Positions 1-36,853 of a stretch of 38,252 nucleotides of DNA are shown in pieces. The stretch's first letter is position 1. Every line of letters begins with the position of its first letter. Both the position numbers and the translations under genes were made by a program. Below the pieces are notes generated by a model, which was not told the DNA's origin, made no database searches, and saw only the letters and a list, made by a program, of their open reading frames with translations. The DNA is from Escherichia phage E212, in the sequence record MZ043897.1; one strand, written 5' to 3'.

Positions 1-489
1 TTATTTGATAAGAAGTGAAGGTTTCCCAACTTTGAGTTGAGCGCCGGGGATATTTATTCCTGCTTTTAGTTGGTGTTTGATTGCCAGTTTGTCGGCTTTA
101 ATTGTCGTTTCAAACTCAACGTATTCAGGAGGAATGGCGCTTGAGTCGATGATTTCTACAATTTCTGACGGTTTGCGGATTGTTACCTGGTGAATACCTG
201 CTCGAATATTTTTCTTGCCAACCATTTCAAGCGATGACGCTATATATGATTTGATGCTGTCAATCTTATTTTGAATTACTGCGGCTCGCTCATTCAGCGA
301 CTTTGCCTCGTCCTTGAGGCGTTCAGCATAACCAGATTCATTTTTAATAATGGCAAGAAGTTGCTCTATTTTATCGGTAAATTCTCCTTCCATGCCTTCT
401 ATTGTGTCAGCAATCATCTCTGGCTCTAAATCTGAATCCATCAGCTTTGCGTATTCATTGGCTATTTCATACAGTTTGCTCACTGGCAA
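1..489 (-). CDS. Putative DNA-end-binding host-nuclease inhibitor (Mu Gam-like / Gp157-like), recombination module
   Basis: Complete 162-aa ORF with stop at 1-3; coiled-coil-like N-terminal half and a C-terminal region resembling Gam-type end-binding proteins; start overlaps the recT 3' end on the same strand. Confidence 0.4.
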   Translation of the reverse strand: MPVSKLYEIANEYAKLMDSDLEPEMIADTIEGMEGEFTDKIEQLLAIIKNESGYAERLKDEAKSLNERAAVIQNKIDSIKSYIASSLEMVGKKNIRAGIHQVTIRKPSEIVEIIDSSAIPPEYVEFETTIKADKLAIKHQLKAGINIPGAQLKVGKPSLLIK

Positions 490-1369
490 CCTCCAGTTTC
501 GCTTTGCATTCTATGTAAATGGCTTGTACGTTCTGCTGCAATTTCATTCCAGATGTCAGGCGATATGCTTCTGCAAAATATCGCTTCAAATCATCCATGT
601 TTTCTGCCTGAGCCATTTCATCGCAAAGAAGTTGTGCTTTATCCATTATTTCCTGCTGGAGTTTCCGTTCATCTTCGCGGATATCTTCCTCTGATTTGTG
701 CGGCATAACTGGTTCCTGATGCATACCTTCATCTTCGTTAAGCAGGTGAATGGCATTATCCAGTCGCTGGGCTTTAGGCCAGTATTTGCTGGCGCGTTTA
801 ACTATTGTTTTACGCGCCATCTCTTCCCAGAATGTTTTCCACGGTCCATTCTTTGCCTTGCTCGTTGCTTCCACTGCTTTAATTTCTGCCAGACTCATTT
901 CTTCAGTCAGGTAGTCACCATCTGCTGTTTTTACCGTGCAATAACCACCAACAATAGAGCCTCGCTCTCCAAATGCGTTGTATTTGTGAGTTGGTGCTGA
1001 ATCAAGGCCATTTGATTCATAGGTGTCGTTTGAGTACACCAGTTTGCATTGCCCCCACTTAATTGAGCCTGTCGATTGCGCAAGATGAAGTAATCCCATA
1101 TAGCTGATATCAAGGCAAACCATGCCGTCGCGCGGAACTAGATAAGCAAGTTTGCTGGCCGGGTTTAAGGTGATGCCGATCGCCGCAACATTGATGATGG
1201 CGTTCTGTGCGCTGGTTGGATTTGCCAGTGCCGTTTTAGCCAGGTAATCGTTTTTCTGGAAATACTGAATTGCAAACTGGCTTTCCTTAGCCCATGTCAC
1301 CGTCTGTTCAGTCAATGCTCCGCAGAATAACTGCTCCTGCTGTTTAACGAATTCAACGATATTGCTCAT
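467..1369 (-). CDS. recT: RecT-family single-strand annealing recombinase
   Basis: 300-aa ORF; C-terminal segment GPWKTFWEEMARKTIVKRASKYWP matches the conserved RecT motif (E. coli RecT GPWVTHWEEMAKKTAIRRLFKYLP). Confidence 0.85.
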   Translation of the reverse strand: MSNIVEFVKQQEQLFCGALTEQTVTWAKESQFAIQYFQKNDYLAKTALANPTSAQNAIINVAAIGITLNPASKLAYLVPRDGMVCLDISYMGLLHLAQSTGSIKWGQCKLVYSNDTYESNGLDSAPTHKYNAFGERGSIVGGYCTVKTADGDYLTEEMSLAEIKAVEATSKAKNGPWKTFWEEMARKTIVKRASKYWPKAQRLDNAIHLLNEDEGMHQEPVMPHKSEEDIREDERKLQQEIMDKAQLLCDEMAQAENMDDLKRYFAEAYRLTSGMKLQQNVQAIYIECKAKLEVASEQTV

Positions 1370-4078: not shown

Positions 4079-4738
4079 TCACCCAAACGTCTCTTCAGGC
4101 CACTGACTAGCGATAACTTTCCCCACAACGGAACAACTCTCATTGCATGGGATCATTGGGTATTGTGGGTTTAGTGGCTGTAGAAACACCTGACCGCTAT
4201 CCCTGATCAGTTTCTTGAAGGTAAACTCATCACCACCAAGTCTGGCTATACAGAAATCGCCTGGCTCAACAGCCTGCTCAGGGTCAACCAGAATTAACAT
4301 CCCGTCAGGAAAGCTGGGCTTGGATCCTGTTGGTGCGGTCATGGAATTACCTTCAACCTCAAGCCAGAATGCAGAGCCACTGGCTTTTTTGGTTGTGCTT
4401 ACCAATCTCTCCGCATCGCCTTTGGTAAAGGTTCTGAGTTCTGGAGAGAACATCCCAGCCTGAACATGAGAAAATACAGGGTACTCATATTGTTTTTTAA
4501 CTGGGGCCGATGAGTATTCGCCAACAGGTGAAAATGTCCCGTCGTGGTTGAATGATATGTTATCAATACCAAGGTATTTAAACACCACACCAATATCACT
4601 AAGAGATGGATGACGAGATCCGCGCAACCAGTGTCCAATCCCACCCTGCGTCATACCTAGCTCTTCGGCTAACTTCTCTTGAGTTATGCCGAGCTCTTTC
4701 ATTCTGGATCTAGCCAGTTCATACCATTTCATTTTCAT
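4079..4738 (-). CDS. cI: CI repressor, hybrid: novel N-terminal HTH domain fused to a lambda-cI-type C-terminal S24 (LexA-like) domain
   Basis: C-terminal about 135 aa ([13 protein letters not shown]...[12 protein letters not shown]) near-identical to lambda cI; N-terminal about 85 aa ([37 protein letters not shown]...) unrelated to lambda cI; start taken at the internal Met with RBS AAGGA. Confidence 0.9.
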
Positions 4739-4773
4739 GTCCTTATTATTACGCTCTGTACTGGAACCATCCA

Positions 4774-4820
4774 TGCACAATGTGTATTTTTGCTTGTATT
4801 TGGAAAGTACATATTGTATT
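4774..4820. promoter_or_regulatory. oR operator candidates in the cI-cro divergent region
   Basis: TGCACAATGTGTATT (4774-4788) and AGTACATATTGTATT (4806-4820) resemble the oL palindrome AGTACGATATGTACT; exact pR/pRM hexamers not resolved. Confidence 0.35.
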
Positions 4821-11642: not shown

Positions 11643-12084
11643 ATATCTGCACAACAGGTAAGAGCATTGAACCCGCAGACCTCGCGGAATTGGTGAAAGG
11701 TGCCGCGCAGTGCTCTTATCGTTGTGGTGAATGCACAGGCTGATGTGTAAGGGCAAGAATCTTTCGCTGGATTCGGTGTGGCCACGTAGCCCGCTGTAGG
11801 CAGTTGCAGCAAACCGGAGATCAGCACCGGTCGCCACAATCCAAACTGAGCCGTAGCCACTGGCTATCCTGAATTCATCAGTGATAGTTACGCTGCGGCC
11901 TTCTACACATGATCTTCGTGAAAGCGGGCGGCATGAGGTTGCGCTAACAACCTCATGCCGTTTTGCCCGTGCATATCGGTCACGAACAAATCTGATTACT
12001 AAACACAGTAGCCTGGATTTGTTCTATCAGTAATCGACCTTATTCCTAATTAAATAGAGCAAATCCCCTTATTGGGGGTAAGAC

Positions 12085-29284: not shown

Positions 29285-29728
29285 ATGCTCACTTGTTTTG
29301 ATGTCGCCGACTACTTCTTGGCGCATTGCGATGAAGAAAGTGGCGACATTATCTCTAACCTAAAAATTCAGAAGTTGACGTATTATGCCCAAGGGTTTTC
29401 TCTGGTTCTTCTGGGTAAACCGCTATTTAATGAGAAAATTGAAGCCTGGATGCATGGGCCAGTAGTTCCTGAATTGTATCGTAAATATAGGGACTGTGGT
29501 AACGGAGCTTTACCTGCGCCAGAAAACTTTGACGCTAAAAAATTCAGTGAAGATGAAATTGAATTGCTGGATGAGGTGTATAAAGTTTATGGTCAGTTTT
29601 CTGCCTGGAAACTGCGCAATATGACTCACGAAGAGCAGCCATGGAAAGATGCTTACATTGAGGGTGCGGTTAGCCAAGAAATCACACTTGATTCTATGAA
29701 AGGTTTTTTCAAAACGTTAATTAACTGA
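29285..29728 (+). CDS. Panacea-domain (DUF4065, GepA/SocA-like) protein; putative antitoxin or regulator
   Basis: DVADYFL...ISNLKIQKLTYYAQGFSLVLLGKPLFNEKIEAWMHGPVVPELY matches the Panacea/COG3600 signature; start at the second ATG (7 nt after GGAGG; track start is 29279). Confidence 0.7.
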   Translation: MLTCFDVADYFLAHCDEESGDIISNLKIQKLTYYAQGFSLVLLGKPLFNEKIEAWMHGPVVPELYRKYRDCGNGALPAPENFDAKKFSEDEIELLDEVYKVYGQFSAWKLRNMTHEEQPWKDAYIEGAVSQEITLDSMKGFFKTLIN

Positions 29729-33998: not shown

Positions 33999-35177
33999 AT
34001 GGCTATAAGCGACACAAAACTGCGTACTATTTATGGTAAACCATATTCGGGCCCACAAGAAGTGGCTGATGCCGATGGCCTCAGCGTACGAATTTCACCG
34101 AAGGGTGTCATCCAGTTCCAGTACCGCTATCGCTGGCATGGCAAGCCTAATCGACTTGGGCTTGGTCGATACCCATCCCTGTCTTTGAAGGATGCCAGAC
34201 AGATCACTGCTGACTTGCGAAAGCTCTATTTCTCAGGAACGGATCCACGCACCTATTTTGAAGAGAAGGTGGAGAACTCCATGACGGTCGCTCAGTGTCT
34301 CGACTACTGGTTCGACAACTACGTCTCTACAACTCTCAGAGAAAAGACCCAGGCACTTTACCGATCAACGGTTATGAAGCGCATGCATGACGCCTTTCCT
34401 AATCGTCCGGCATCTTCTATCACGGTTAAGCAATGGGTTGACCTGCTTACCGAAGAAGAAAGAGATAATCCACGCCGAGCAAGGCAGGTGCTAAGTCAAC
34501 TAAGATCAGCAATAAGTTGGTGCATGCGGCGTCAGTTGATAGATAGTTGCGCAATTATGAGCATCCAACCAAGGGACTTCGGCTCCCGCGCTGAGGTAGG
34601 GGATCGGGTACTGTCGTATCACGAACTGGCTAAGATTTGGCTTGCTATTGAAAGAAGCCGTGCGTCTACGTCAAATAAGCTCCTTCATCAGATGCTTATG
34701 CTGTGGGGGGCGAGGCTCTCAGAGCTTAGGCTGGCAACAAAGACAGAATTTGACCTGCTGGACAACGTATGGACCGTACCGAAAGAGCATAGCAAGATGG
34801 GTAATGTTATCCGCCGTCCAATCTTCGAACAAATTAAGCCTTTTCTCGAAAAGGCCATGACAACGTACAATGATGTTCTTTTCCCTGGAGAAGACATAAA
34901 CAAACCGATCAGCATCGCTGCAGCCAACCGATTCGTAAATAGAATAAGGGGAGGGATGGATCTGGGTTACTGGCGAACACATGATTTCAGAAGAACGCTT
35001 GTTACACGTCTGTCCGAGATGAATGTCGAGCCTCATGTTACTGAGCGAATGCTCGGTCATGAACTTGGCGGGATAATGTCCGTGTACAATAAACACGACT
35101 GGATAGAGGCTCAGCGCAAAGCGTATGAGCTTCACGCTGATAAATTGTTCTGGCACATCAGGAGCATTTCTGATTAA
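33999..35177 (+). CDS. int: Tyrosine integrase, P4-type (N-terminal arm-binding domain)
   Basis: N-terminus SDTKLRTIYGKPYSGPQEVADADGLSVRISPKGVIQFQYRYRWHGKPNRLGLGRYPSLSLKDARQ typical of P4-like integrase arm-binding domains; C-terminal catalytic region with HDFRRT and a conserved Tyr. Confidence 0.85.
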   Translation: MAISDTKLRTIYGKPYSGPQEVADADGLSVRISPKGVIQFQYRYRWHGKPNRLGLGRYPSLSLKDARQITADLRKLYFSGTDPRTYFEEKVENSMTVAQCLDYWFDNYVSTTLREKTQALYRSTVMKRMHDAFPNRPASSITVKQWVDLLTEEERDNPRRARQVLSQLRSAISWCMRRQLIDSCAIMSIQPRDFGSRAEVGDRVLSYHELAKIWLAIERSRASTSNKLLHQMLMLWGARLSELRLATKTEFDLLDNVWTVPKEHSKMGNVIRRPIFEQIKPFLEKAMTTYNDVLFPGEDINKPISIAAANRFVNRIRGGMDLGYWRTHDFRRTLVTRLSEMNVEPHVTERMLGHELGGIMSVYNKHDWIEAQRKAYELHADKLFWHIRSISD

Positions 35178-35349
35178 CGCCACCGTTAAGAATCCACCCT
35201 TCAACAGCTTCACGAAGGTATGATTTGGGGTGGGTTCTGACTGGCTTCGGAAATCCGTGCCGTTTGGTATAGTTCCAGATTGTCTGACGTGATGAAACAC
35301 CGAGCTTGTTCATCACTTCTTTCTCAGGAATCAGGCTGGTATCGGTCAT
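35158..35349 (-). CDS. AlpA/Xis-like small HTH protein (putative excisionase or regulator)
   Basis: 63-aa ORF; KEVMNKLGVSSRQTIWNYTKRHGFPKPV...EAVEGWI matches the AlpA-family pattern; RBS GGAG; 3' end overlaps the int 3' end by 20 nt. Confidence 0.6.
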   Translation of the reverse strand: MTDTSLIPEKEVMNKLGVSSRQTIWNYTKRHGFPKPVRTHPKSYLREAVEGWILNGGVNQKCS

Positions 35350-35967: not shown

Positions 35968-35980
35968 TTATCATCTCCAT

Positions 35981-36003
35981 AAAACAAAACTCGCCGTAGC
36001 GAG
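35981..36003 (-). terminator. Intercistronic terminator-like hairpin in the leftward early operon
   Basis: Minus strand CUCGC-UACG-GCGAG followed by UUUUGUUUU. Confidence 0.4.
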
Positions 36004-36068
36004 TTCAGATAAAAGAAATCCCCGCGAGTGCGAGGATTGTTAGTTGCGCTCTGCTGCTGCCTTAGCCA

Positions 36069-36155
36069 TTACCATATCCACCAAACTTCACCAGACATGA
36101 TTCTCGCAATCACTATCATCACCAAAGTGATAATCACAACTTTAACTGGCGGCAT
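36069..36155 (-). CDS. 28-aa hydrophobic peptide (putative small membrane peptide)
   Basis: MPPVKVVIITLVMIVIARIMSGEVWWIW; its ATG overlaps the stop of the upstream 232-aa ORF (TGATG); below the ORF-track cutoff. Confidence 0.3.
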   Translation of the reverse strand: MPPVKVVIITLVMIVIARIMSGEVWWIW

Positions 36156-36853
36156 CATTCACCATCCTGCTGCGGTTCTGCTGGATATGCTTTTCTCATC
36201 CAATGCGTGGCGTCATGAATAACGAACTGATATTCATCATCAGTAAACATCGAGCCATCCCACTGTAGCCCGTCAATAACGCCTCTGGATGGAGAGAATA
36301 CCCAGATATCGAAATCGTATTTCTCCGGCATTCGCTCACTACAGCTTATCCAGCCATCCGGAGTTACCGGAGAATTGCCATTTACCAAGTCAGCTCGAAC
36401 ATATAGCGTGTCATCATGGTGCTGATTGTGGCTGCACCACGTTAATTCGCTTAACTCGCCATCTTCTGGCCATACTCCAGCTGTTTGCAGCCAGATATGG
36501 GCTGGCGCATCTTGGCAAGGTGTATTAACTGGCAACTTGTAAGTTTGGCTTACAGGTTGGCTACCCTGAAGCATGGCAGCGTGGCAGGCATCCTCTACGC
36601 CCTTTACTGCATCTGCGCAGTAGTTATAGCGATTGCATTCCACTAACTTCTGCTTGAGATTTTCAATTGCTTGCGCGACATCAGCCTGTATTTCCGGAAA
36701 TGGCGGTTCTGCCCGGCCTTTCCAGCCTTCCCACATGGCAGCCATCATCACGAACCAAGCGTTTCCACAGCCATCTTTTTTGTTATCAAAGAACCAGTCA
36801 GCGAACTCTAGGCTCATGCCATTTTGTTCTGCTATTTCATATCGATTATCCAT
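36155..36853 (-). CDS. Hypothetical early protein (232 aa)
   Basis: Long ORF in the leftward operon; Trp/Cys-rich; start overlaps the stop of the upstream ORF. Confidence 0.55.
   Translation of the reverse strand: MDNRYEIAEQNGMSLEFADWFFDNKKDGCGNAWFVMMAAMWEGWKGRAEPPFPEIQADVAQAIENLKQKLVECNRYNYCADAVKGVEDACHAAMLQGSQPVSQTYKLPVNTPCQDAPAHIWLQTAGVWPEDGELSELTWCSHNQHHDDTLYVRADLVNGNSPVTPDGWISCSERMPEKYDFDIWVFSPSRGVIDGLQWDGSMFTDDEYQFVIHDATHWMRKAYPAEPQQDGE

What the first reader, a model, noticed from the sequence alone, without database searches (positions are those of the whole stretch)
36069..36155. Translationally coupled 28-aa hydrophobic peptide in the early operon
MPPVKVVIITLVMIVIARIMSGEVWWIW starts at a TGATG overlap with the upstream 232-aa gene and is predicted to form a single membrane helix. 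Small hydrophobic early peptides in phages often act as host-killing or division-inhibiting factors.
Basis: partly seen in the sequence, partly recalled or inferred. Interest (0 to 1): 0.4.

Follow-up and report, generated by a model that had tools for sequence, protein, structure and literature searches.

The report
Conserved 28-residue phage membrane microprotein gene
The 28-codon reading frame is a real small gene for a very hydrophobic, probably membrane-embedded peptide, kept under purifying selection in prophages of E. coli, Shigella, Citrobacter and Enterobacter, but what it does is untested and it belongs to a large, already recognised class of small bacterial and phage membrane proteins.

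Summary
On the minus strand, 36155..36069 encodes MPPVKVVIITLVMIVIARIMSGEVWWIW. Its ATG overlaps the TGA of the 232-aa DUF551 gene (TGATG), in the early-left recT-to-xis operon of a P22-like or lambdoid prophage.

It is more than a chance ORF:
- 79 related loci carry it, and 77 are intact at exactly 28 codons.
- Divergent copies in Citrobacter, Enterobacter and unassigned prophages keep the frame while synonymous sites are near saturation. Median dN/dS is 0.18. Five disjoint pairs give pN/pS 0.22 (p = 2e-10). The part free of search bias gives 0.42 (p = 0.003).
- A Shine-Dalgarno sequence sits 4-7 nt upstream behind unrelated upstream genes.
- The stop overlaps the next gene's start (TAATG or TGATG).

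R18, G22 and W28 are invariant, E/D23 is conservative, and residues 12-20 vary only among hydrophobic residues. Pfam, PHROGs, NCBIfam and Rfam give no match. PGAP never calls the ORF in the records read, and a few GenBank records call it "hypothetical protein".

The most likely reading is a translationally coupled small inner-membrane protein made early in lytic growth, acting through sequence-specific contacts in the membrane. The host-killing or division-inhibitor idea is untested and has no specific support. I rate it a new member of a known kind, of moderate interest.

The parts
36069..36155 (-). 28-codon ORF plus TAA stop: MPPVKVVIITLVMIVIARIMSGEVWWIW. This is the conserved small membrane-protein gene.
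   Evidence: Sequence and translation. Of 79 loci, 77 are intact at exactly 28 codons. Median dN/dS is 0.18 in this frame, against 0.38 or more in the other five frames. Disjoint-pair tests give p = 2e-10 for codons 2-28 and p = 0.003 for codons 12-28.
36156..36158 (-). Extra in-frame ATG that gives the 29-aa form. It is not conserved.
   Evidence: It becomes ATA in the TAATG alleles and GTG in the divergent homologs. The 29-aa form is the one present in protein databases as 'hypothetical protein'.
36159..36168 (-). Shine-Dalgarno-like AGGATGGTGA, embedded in the last codons (..QDGE) of the upstream gene.
   Evidence: Duplex with the 16S rRNA 3' end is -7.8 kcal/mol with 4-nt spacing. Relatives have AGGAGGTGA (-11.6), GGAGGTGA, GGGGGTAA, AAGGGGAT or TGGGGAT at 5-7 nt, behind unrelated upstream genes.
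36155..36853 (-). Upstream 232-aa gene with a C-terminal DUF551 domain. Its TGA (36157..36155) overlaps the small ORF's ATG.
   Evidence: Pfam PF04448, E = 1.6e-9. PGAP annotates it as 'DUF551 domain-containing protein'. The upstream partner differs between loci.
36040..36069 (-). 9-codon remnant MAKAAAERN*. Its ATG overlaps the small ORF's TAA (TAATG). It is the truncated 5' end of a 112-aa phrog_536 gene that is full length in other phages.
35977..36038 (-). Two tandem intrinsic terminators, with stems at 36038-36017 and 36006-35987, each followed by a T-tract. They close this transcription segment.
   Evidence: One search found 6 terminator-like sites against 1.1 expected in shuffles. The segment is conserved in lambda, 434, HK022 (annotated tL4 terminator), Sf6 and Stx phages.

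Best explanation
The ORF is a genuine protein-coding gene for a 28-residue, very hydrophobic peptide that most likely sits in the host inner membrane as a single helix.

It is transcribed as part of the early-left (PL-type) operon, in the accessory recT/exo-to-xis region. It is translated from its own Shine-Dalgarno sequence and/or by ribosomes that terminate on the overlapping UGA or UAA of the preceding gene and restart (UGAUG). In many relatives its own stop in turn overlaps the start of the next gene.

The peptide itself, not merely the act of translating it, is the selected product. I infer that it works like the bacterial small membrane proteins that bind and modulate a larger membrane protein or complex through helix-helix contacts. 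The invariant N-terminal MPPVKVVIITL, R18, the small-residue pair S/T/A21-G22, the acidic residue 23 and the terminal I/V-W would provide those contacts. It would act during early lytic development rather than in the lysogen.

Shown: the frame, the coupling signals, purifying selection, hydrophobicity, and modular movement between different neighbouring genes.
Inferred: translation, membrane insertion, the existence of a specific partner, and the timing of expression.
For: 1. Frame and length are conserved. Of 79 loci from E. coli genomes, phage records, IMG/VR and metagenomes, 77 have exactly 28 codons.
2. Divergent copies come from a Citrobacter braakii/freundii-complex prophage and an Enterobacter soli prophage. 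They differ at most synonymous sites (dS up to about 2) but little at the protein level. Pairwise dN/dS is 0.07-0.37, median 0.18. The antisense shadow frame gives 0.38 and the other frames 0.6 or more. Serine 21 switches between TCT and AGC.
3. Five disjoint pairs give pN/pS 0.22 (p = 2e-10). Codons 12-28, which are not constrained by my search pattern, give 0.42 (p = 0.003).
4. Replacements at positions 12-20 are all among A, C, F, I, L, M and V. R18, G22 and W28 are invariant and position 23 is E or D.
5. A Shine-Dalgarno sequence lies 4-7 nt upstream in every lineage even where the upstream gene is unrelated. The stop-start overlap with the upstream gene is present in all lineages but one.
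6. The stop overlaps the next start (TAATG or TGATG) with four different downstream partners.
7. The ORF stays intact where the downstream gene has been reduced to 9 codons plus terminators, as in this window, so it is not just a coupling bridge.
8. GRAVY is 1.56 and the apolar core is 12-15 residues.
Against: There is no direct evidence of translation, membrane insertion or any phenotype.

The uninterrupted hydrophobic run is only 12 residues, and a conserved Arg sits inside the predicted span, so a canonical bitopic topology is not assured.

The family is narrow. The phage collection holds 9 of 50,697 records, E. coli complete genomes 224 of 5,426, and species-representative genomes 0 of 185,579 with the N-terminal pattern.

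The invariance of residues 1-11 is partly an ascertainment effect, because the distant copies were found through N-terminal words or patterns. A relaxed pattern found no extra variants.

Some copies are damaged: start ATG changed to ATT (L015), W28 changed to stop (L023), a frameshifted 3' end (L066), and the 5' third replaced (E. coli BY68). The gene is therefore dispensable.

No constant neighbouring gene points to a partner.
Confidence: 0.6

Rival explanations
1. Host-killing or growth-arresting membrane toxin. The peptide would oligomerise in the inner membrane and depolarise it, or otherwise arrest growth or division, helping host takeover early in the lytic cycle.
For: Its size, hydrophobicity and single predicted helix resemble type I toxins such as IbsC, ShoB, TisB and DinQ, which depolarise the membrane when expressed (review PMC12648545). 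It sits in an early operon that is repressed in the lysogen. A conserved Arg and an acidic residue within a short helix could line a pore.
Against: No sequence relationship to any toxin model in Pfam or NCBIfam. The strict position-specific conservation and fixed length are more than generic membrane damage would require; this is an inference. Known lambdoid early killers (Kil, KilR, DicB) are soluble proteins (general knowledge). Nothing here tests toxicity.
Confidence: 0.2
2. Translation-only element. The ORF would exist to carry ribosomes from the upstream gene to the downstream gene as a coupling bridge, or to act as a regulatory leader for the terminators. The peptide itself would have no function.
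For: It overlaps stop and start on both sides. Stop-start overlaps of this kind are the signature of termination-reinitiation coupling. Huber et al. 2019 (PMC6728339) appears in the reference list shown, but I did not read it.
Against: The amino-acid sequence is under purifying selection, not only the frame. The ORF is kept intact where the downstream gene is deleted to 9 codons, and with four different downstream partners. In this window the stop lies 31 nt before the first terminator stem, too far for a terminating ribosome to occlude it.
Confidence: 0.06
3. Toxin of a type I toxin-antitoxin module, with an antisense RNA made from the plus strand.
For: It is a small hydrophobic peptide in a prophage. 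One sigma-70-like site lies antisense inside the ORF, at plus-strand 36092-36119.
Against: That single site is fewer than the shuffled expectation (1 found against 2.9). There is no Rfam match. Synonymous sites are nearly saturated between lineages, so no overlapping antisense RNA or promoter is conserved. The gene is embedded in an operon with stop-start overlaps rather than being a stand-alone locus with a long structured 5' UTR.
Confidence: 0.03
4. The ORF is not a gene. It would be a chance ORF in the spacer between the DUF551 gene and the terminators, the shadow of the plus-strand 64-aa ORF (36028..36222), or a C-terminal extension joined to the upstream protein by frameshifting.
For: ORFs of this length are common by chance. 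PGAP and most phage annotations do not call it. Its third codon positions coincide with those of the plus-strand ORF.
Against: dN/dS is lowest in this frame, 0.18 against 0.38 for the shadow frame. The shadow frame acquires a stop in one of the two open antisense frames in L064. The SD and ATG are conserved. For frameshifting, the ORF is in the -1 frame but there is no slippery heptamer, and in this window an in-frame TGA lies two codons before the conserved ATG, directly before the extra ATG.
Confidence: 0.04

Closest known systems
Bacterial small membrane proteins that modulate larger membrane proteins: MgtR (30 aa), MgtS (31 aa), KdpF (29 aa), and AcrZ and PmrR from general knowledge (review PMC12648545)
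   Same: About 30 residues, essentially one hydrophobic helix with very short tails. Conservation is concentrated on a few polar or small residues inside or next to the helix. The size is the same as KdpF's 29 aa.
   Different: No sequence similarity (Pfam and NCBIfam negative). This peptide is phage-encoded in an early lytic operon. No partner is known and no constant neighbouring membrane-protein gene exists. The apolar run is shorter, at 12-15 residues.
Type I toxins (IbsC 19 aa, ShoB, TisB, DinQ, Hok; PMC12648545)
   Same: A small hydrophobic single-helix peptide. Some of these systems sit in prophages.
   Different: There is no antisense RNA signal, no stand-alone locus and no family match. 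The peptide is translationally coupled inside an operon. Synonymous sites are free to vary.
Proteins of the exo-xis region of lambda and Stx phages: Orf60a, Orf61, Orf63, Orf73, Ea22, Ea8.5 (PMC10834534, PMC8614690)
   Same: The genomic compartment is the same: non-essential accessory genes between the recombination genes and xis, transcribed early from PL. Ea22 variants and other neighbours carry the same portable DUF551 C-terminal domain that ends just before this ORF.
   Different: The described exo-xis proteins are soluble, and the modelling survey of the region mentions no membrane peptide. This ORF is absent from lambda itself, where only the downstream terminator segment matches.
Conserved intergenic small ORFs of Enterobacteriaceae, the 'Entero67K' set (PMC11188072)
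   Same: A 15-70-codon ORF that standard annotation misses, hydrophobic and under purifying selection. That study reports tens of thousands of such clusters, mostly hydrophobic.
   Different: I could not check whether this particular family is in that catalogue. This one is phage-borne, and it overlaps its neighbours rather than lying free in an intergenic region.

Membership tests
Translationally coupled operon gene (termination-reinitiation type) | The start codon overlaps or abuts the stop codon of the upstream gene on the same strand. | tested here: met
   The window has TGATG. Relatives have TGATG or TAATG. Only L060 differs, with the stop 11 nt upstream.
Translationally coupled operon gene (termination-reinitiation type) | A ribosome-binding sequence lies at a functional distance from the start. 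| tested here: met
   Anti-SD duplex energies are -3.7 to -11.6 kcal/mol with spacing of 4-7 nt in 8 lineages.
Translationally coupled operon gene (termination-reinitiation type) | Downstream translation depends on upstream translation. | not testable with these tools
   This needs reporter fusions with an upstream premature stop codon.
Protein-coding gene under selection | dN/dS is well below 1 in this frame and lower than in the alternative frames. | tested here: met
   Median dN/dS is 0.18, against 0.38-3.3 in the other frames. Binomial tests give p = 2e-10 for codons 2-28 and p = 0.003 for codons 12-28.
Single-pass small membrane protein | A hydrophobic segment long enough to span the bilayer. 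| tested here: inconclusive
   GRAVY is 1.56. The apolar core is 12-15 residues and has a negative Hessa-scale sum. The 19-residue window gives +2.2 kcal/mol with the position-independent scale, because of R18 and E23. No dedicated topology predictor was available, and the peptide is too short for the structure tool.
Single-pass small membrane protein | The peptide is found in the membrane fraction and binds a larger membrane protein. | not testable with these tools
   This needs fractionation of a tagged peptide and pull-down or two-hybrid assays.
Type I toxin-antitoxin system | An antisense or divergent small RNA antitoxin with its own promoter and terminator. | tested here: not met
   One weak plus-strand promoter-like site was found against 2.9 expected by chance. 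There is no Rfam hit, and synonymous sites are near saturation between lineages.
Type I toxin-antitoxin system | Sequence membership of a known toxin family (Hok, Ldr, Ibs, ShoB, TisB, DinQ, Zor and others). | tested here: not met
   No Pfam or NCBIfam match, even at E up to 10 for NCBIfam.
Type I toxin-antitoxin system | Toxicity on expression. | not testable with these tools
   This needs an induction experiment.
Holin, antiholin or spanin lysis proteins | The gene is located in the late lysis cassette next to the endolysin. | tested here: not met
   The ORF lies in the early-left operon on the minus strand. The late genes are on the plus strand from about position 12,000 onwards.
Lambdoid early killers and division inhibitors (Kil, KilR, DicB) | Sequence homology to one of these families. 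| tested here: not met
   No Pfam, PHROG or NCBIfam match for the peptide.
Regulatory leader peptide or upstream ORF | The ORF is tied to one downstream gene or attenuator, and the peptide sequence is usually free to vary. | tested here: not met
   There are four different downstream contexts, the peptide sequence is constrained, and in this window the stop lies 31 nt from the terminator stem.

The most novel reading that the evidence does not exclude
The peptide founds an undescribed family of phage transmembrane microproteins. Together with the second coupled mini-ORF (MPNPFD..) seen in Enterobacter-type relatives, it would dock onto a specific host inner-membrane machine, for example a protease, a transporter used for DNA entry, or a divisome component. 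That would make it the first membrane-acting effector of the exo-xis region, tuning the lysis-lysogeny decision or superinfection during early development.
Probability: 0.2. Interest if true: 0.6.

Novelty: new member of a known kind. Interest (0 to 1): 0.35.

Why it matters
The recombination-to-xis ("exo-xis") region of lambdoid and Shiga-toxin phages influences the lysis-lysogeny decision and prophage induction, yet it is still described as under-characterised. All of its described products are soluble proteins (PMC10834534, PMC8614690).

A conserved, selected, membrane-directed 28-residue product in that region is missing from RefSeq annotation. It is present in about 4% of complete E. coli genomes, including many O157:H7 strains carrying Stx2c-type phages. 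It is therefore a concrete, cheap candidate to test for effects on induction, burst size, superinfection or host physiology.

It is also a clean worked example of a real gene that annotation loses through length cut-offs. Gene callers only caught it at the 30-codon limit or when an upstream frame happened to be open.

Tried and rejected
I worked around this by doubling the peptide, which found the divergent homologs. A profile of 11 doubled variants found nothing further.
2. tblastn of the peptide against 50,697 phage records found only 9 near-identical copies.
3. The scan of 185,579 species-representative genomes with the N-terminal degenerate pattern gave 0 hits. The family is absent from the representatives, so that route gave no taxonomy.
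4. A flank-anchored pattern, unbiased for the ORF interior, gave only the known alleles plus 10 chance hits. A relaxed N-terminal pattern gave no new variants.
5. Within the E. coli clade alone, the 13 haplotypes and roughly 12 segregating sites were too few to decide on coding. The divergent copies were needed.
6. Pfam, PHROGs and NCBIfam gave no family for the peptide. Rfam gave only a sub-threshold chance hit.
7. A full-text search for the peptide string found 0 papers. The exo-xis literature mentions no membrane peptide.
8. The programmed-frameshift fusion to the DUF551 protein was considered and rejected, because there is no slippery site and an in-frame stop lies upstream.
9. The antisense 64-aa ORF was considered and rejected on dN/dS and for lack of start signals.
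10. Structure prediction was not possible because the tool's minimum is 30 aa.
11. Hosts of L070, L072, L074 and L096 could not be assigned. L070 shares only short segments with Klebsiella and Citrobacter phages, and L072 has no close phage.

Full report
**What is there.**
The finding's coordinates are correct, but the ORF is on the minus strand. Window 36155..36069 reads ATG CCG CCA GTT ... ATA TGG TAA and encodes MPPVKVVIITLVMIVIARIMSGEVWWIW. The upstream minus-strand ORF, 36853..36155, is 232 aa with a C-terminal DUF551 domain (Pfam E = 1.6e-9). It ends in TGA at 36157..36155, so stop and start share one base (TGATG). A second in-frame ATG one codon upstream (36158..36156) gives the 29-aa form.

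Immediately downstream, the TAA overlaps an ATG (TAATG) that opens only a 9-codon remnant, MAKAAAERN* (36069..36040). Two tandem intrinsic terminators follow, with stems at 36038-36017 and 36006-35987.

**Genomic setting.**
The window is a P22-like or lambdoid temperate phage genome. It carries a repressor (4079..4780, minus), RecT (467..1369, minus), O-like replication protein, terminase, portal, tailspike, integrase (33999..35177, plus) and an AlpA/excisionase-like gene (35158..35349, minus). The minus-strand genes 38241 to 35158 are an Ea22-like gene, 69-aa and 153-aa genes, the DUF551 gene, the small ORF, a 55-aa gene, a 123-aa gene and xis. They continue the early-left operon that begins at the repressor-proximal end.

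The ORF therefore lies in the accessory recombination-to-xis ("exo-xis") region. That region is described as early-transcribed, non-essential and under-characterised (PMC10834534).

**Is it more than chance?**
A 28-codon ORF is not above chance on its own, since 73 ORFs of at least 20 aa overlap these 4.2 kb. The case rests on comparison.

*(a) Distribution of close copies.*
- 224 of 5,426 complete E. coli genomes carry the segment, and PGAP lists only the DUF551 gene there.
- 9 of 50,697 phage records carry it: EC.P3, Stx2 phages 1717 and 2851, and three Stx2a_* phages (F349, WGPS4, WGPS8).
- 41-45 IMG/VR contigs and 22 metagenome contigs carry it.
- None of the annotated records I read calls the ORF.
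- The 29-aa form does exist in protein databases as "hypothetical" or "uncharacterised" protein, for example BBC51094.1 (E. coli O157:H7), SRY66074.1 and SRN41510.1 (Shigella flexneri).

*(b) The segment moves as a module.*
In E. coli it follows a DUF551 protein, an Ea22-like protein or a dATP/dGTP pyrophosphohydrolase. All of these share only the last few codons (..PEPPEQDGE*) that contain the ribosome-binding site. This fits the published description of DUF551 as a portable C-terminal domain.

*(c) The close alleles are uninformative alone.*
Within the E. coli clade there are only 13 haplotypes. Changes in the hydrophobic core are all at third codon positions, and those positions coincide with those of a plus-strand shadow ORF.

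*(d) Divergent homologs settle the question.*
A doubled-peptide query found five divergent homologs, and an N-terminal degenerate DNA pattern found six more. Host assignment by neighbouring genes gives a Citrobacter braakii/freundii-complex prophage next to pgsA (L060) and an Enterobacter soli prophage (L064).

All intact copies are exactly 28 codons. Of 79 loci, 77 are intact, and they give 14 protein variants:

MPPVKVVIITL-[VAI]-[MLI]-[IVLM]-[VAIL]-[IVLA]-[AC]-R-[IMFL]-[MLI]-[STA]-G-[ED]-[VIMT]-[WGV]-x-[IV]-W

Selection statistics:
- Pairwise dN/dS in this frame is 0.07-0.37 with dS up to about 2.
- The median is 0.18, against 0.38 for the antisense shadow frame and 0.6-3.3 for the other frames.
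- Ser21 switches between TCT and AGC.
- Five disjoint pairs give pN/pS = 0.22 (44 synonymous against 29 non-synonymous differences, binomial p = 2e-10).
- Codons 12-28, which my search patterns did not constrain, give 0.42 (p = 0.003).

*(e) Translation signals are conserved independently of the upstream gene.*
An SD lies 4-7 nt from the ATG in eight lineages: AGGAGGTGA, GGAGGTGA, GGGGGTAA, AAGGGGAT, TGGGGAT, AGGTGA, and AGGATGGTGA in the window. Duplex energies are -3.7 to -11.6 kcal/mol. The TGATG or TAATG overlap with the upstream stop is present in all but one lineage.

*(f) The stop overlaps the next gene's start in several contexts.*
The downstream partner is one of the following:
- a 112-aa phrog_536 "transcriptional regulator";
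- a 94-aa phrog_625 protein;
- a second mini-ORF of 25 aa;
- nothing but a remnant and a terminator.

The ORF remains intact in the last case, as in this window. It is therefore not merely a coupling bridge.

**What the peptide looks like.**
GRAVY is 1.56. The uninterrupted apolar run V6-A17 is 12 residues, or 15 residues (V6-M20) with the invariant R18 inside. An S/T/A-G-E/D motif and an I/V-W C-terminus follow. Position-independent Hessa sums are negative for 12-17-residue windows and slightly positive for 19 residues. I read this as a short membrane-embedded helix with a snorkelling Arg.

K5 and the N-terminus favour an N-in orientation by the positive-inside rule, but this is inference only. 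Replacements in positions 12-20 are exclusively hydrophobic. The invariant positions are polar, small or aromatic. That pattern suggests specific helix-helix or interfacial contacts rather than bulk hydrophobicity.

**Alternatives examined.**
- Type I toxin-antitoxin. There is one weak antisense promoter-like site, fewer than the shuffled expectation. There is no Rfam hit and no toxin-family match. Near-saturated synonymous sites argue against a conserved overlapping RNA.
- Programmed frameshift fusion to the upstream protein. The ORF is in the -1 frame but there is no slippery heptamer. In the window a TGA lies two codons before the conserved ATG in the ORF's frame, directly before the extra ATG.
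- Leader peptide. The downstream context is variable and the stop is 31 nt from the terminator stem.
- Antisense 64-aa ORF (36028..36222, plus strand). Its dN/dS is higher and it has no start signals.

Damaged copies exist: ATG changed to ATT in L015, W28 changed to stop in L023, a frameshifted 3' end in L066, and the 5' third replaced behind an anti-RecBCD gene in E. coli BY68. The gene is dispensable, as expected for this accessory region.

**Function.**
Nothing here tests function. My best-supported mechanism is a translationally coupled small inner-membrane protein. It would be made from the PL transcript early in lytic growth, since no promoter-like site on its strand was found between it and the upstream genes. 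It would act through sequence-specific contacts with a membrane partner, in the manner of MgtR, MgtS, KdpF and AcrZ (PMC12648545).

The known lambdoid killers are soluble proteins (general knowledge), and no homology links this peptide to them.

**Novelty and interest.**
The family has no Pfam, PHROG or NCBIfam model, and I found no paper mentioning it. However, conserved hydrophobic small ORFs missed by annotation are now known to be very numerous in Enterobacteriaceae: 67,297 clusters under purifying selection, mostly hydrophobic (PMC11188072).

It is therefore a new member of a known kind. It is solidly real, of unknown role, and of moderate interest mainly because it would be the first membrane-directed product described in the exo-xis region of Stx-type and P22-like prophages.

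Noticed in passing
window 36040..36069 (-): A 9-codon remnant, MAKAAAERN*, whose ATG overlaps the small ORF's TAA. It is the truncated 5' end of a 112-aa phrog_536 'transcriptional regulator' gene that is full length in L046, L011, L006 and L072. A deletion or recombination joined it to the terminator segment.
   Followed up: yes
L063:3261-3347, L064:570-647, L071 (minus strand), directly after the 28-aa ORF: A second translationally coupled mini-ORF, MPNPFD[AVF][IV]MF[VA]LLTWGVIDQ.GW.W (25 aa, TGATG overlap), follows the first in Enterobacter-type relatives. A 68-88-aa MVSKLK.. gene then overlaps it (ATGGTGA). It is reduced to 3-7 codons in L096 and L066. It may be a second small hydrophobic peptide family.
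   Followed up: partly
window 35977..36038 (-): Tandem intrinsic terminators whose roughly 50-nt segment is nearly identical in lambda (about 29310-29360), 434, HK022 (annotated tL4), Sf6, mEp phages and many Stx phages. This is a widely shared mosaic boundary between the ea genes and the xis-proximal genes.
   Followed up: partly
L004:1495-1570 (E. coli BY68; also PEC411): A copy whose first third is replaced lies right after an anti-RecBCD (abc) gene. It has a new in-frame ATG (MTEEFTILVMIV..) that ends just before that gene's TGA, with one base between them (ATGACTGA), and no SD. It is probably a deletion remnant.
   Followed up: partly
L001:3424-3551 (Escherichia phage EC.P3): EC.P3 is 100% identical across the ORF but lacks the terminators and the 55-aa gene, so the small ORF is followed directly by the gene for the 114/123-aa protein.
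   Followed up: no
window 36028..36222 (+): A 64-aa antisense shadow ORF shares third codon positions with the small ORF and overlaps the DUF551 3' end. Its dN/dS is 0.38 against 0.18, so it is not the selected frame.
   Followed up: yes
window 33999..35349: The integrase gene (plus strand) converges on the AlpA/excisionase-like gene (minus strand), and the two overlap by 20 nt at their 3' ends. The same layout is seen in Stx2 phages 1717, 2851 and F349.
   Followed up: no
window 36155..36200 (-) and L002, L003, L005, L065, L068, L094: Proteins with different N-terminal parts (232-aa DUF551 protein, Ea22-like protein, dATP/dGTP pyrophosphohydrolase) share the same DUF551 C-terminal tail, ..THWMPLPEPPEQDGE* or ..AAPQQEVK*. 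The recombination junctions therefore lie inside the domain, just upstream of the small ORF's ribosome-binding site.
   Followed up: partly
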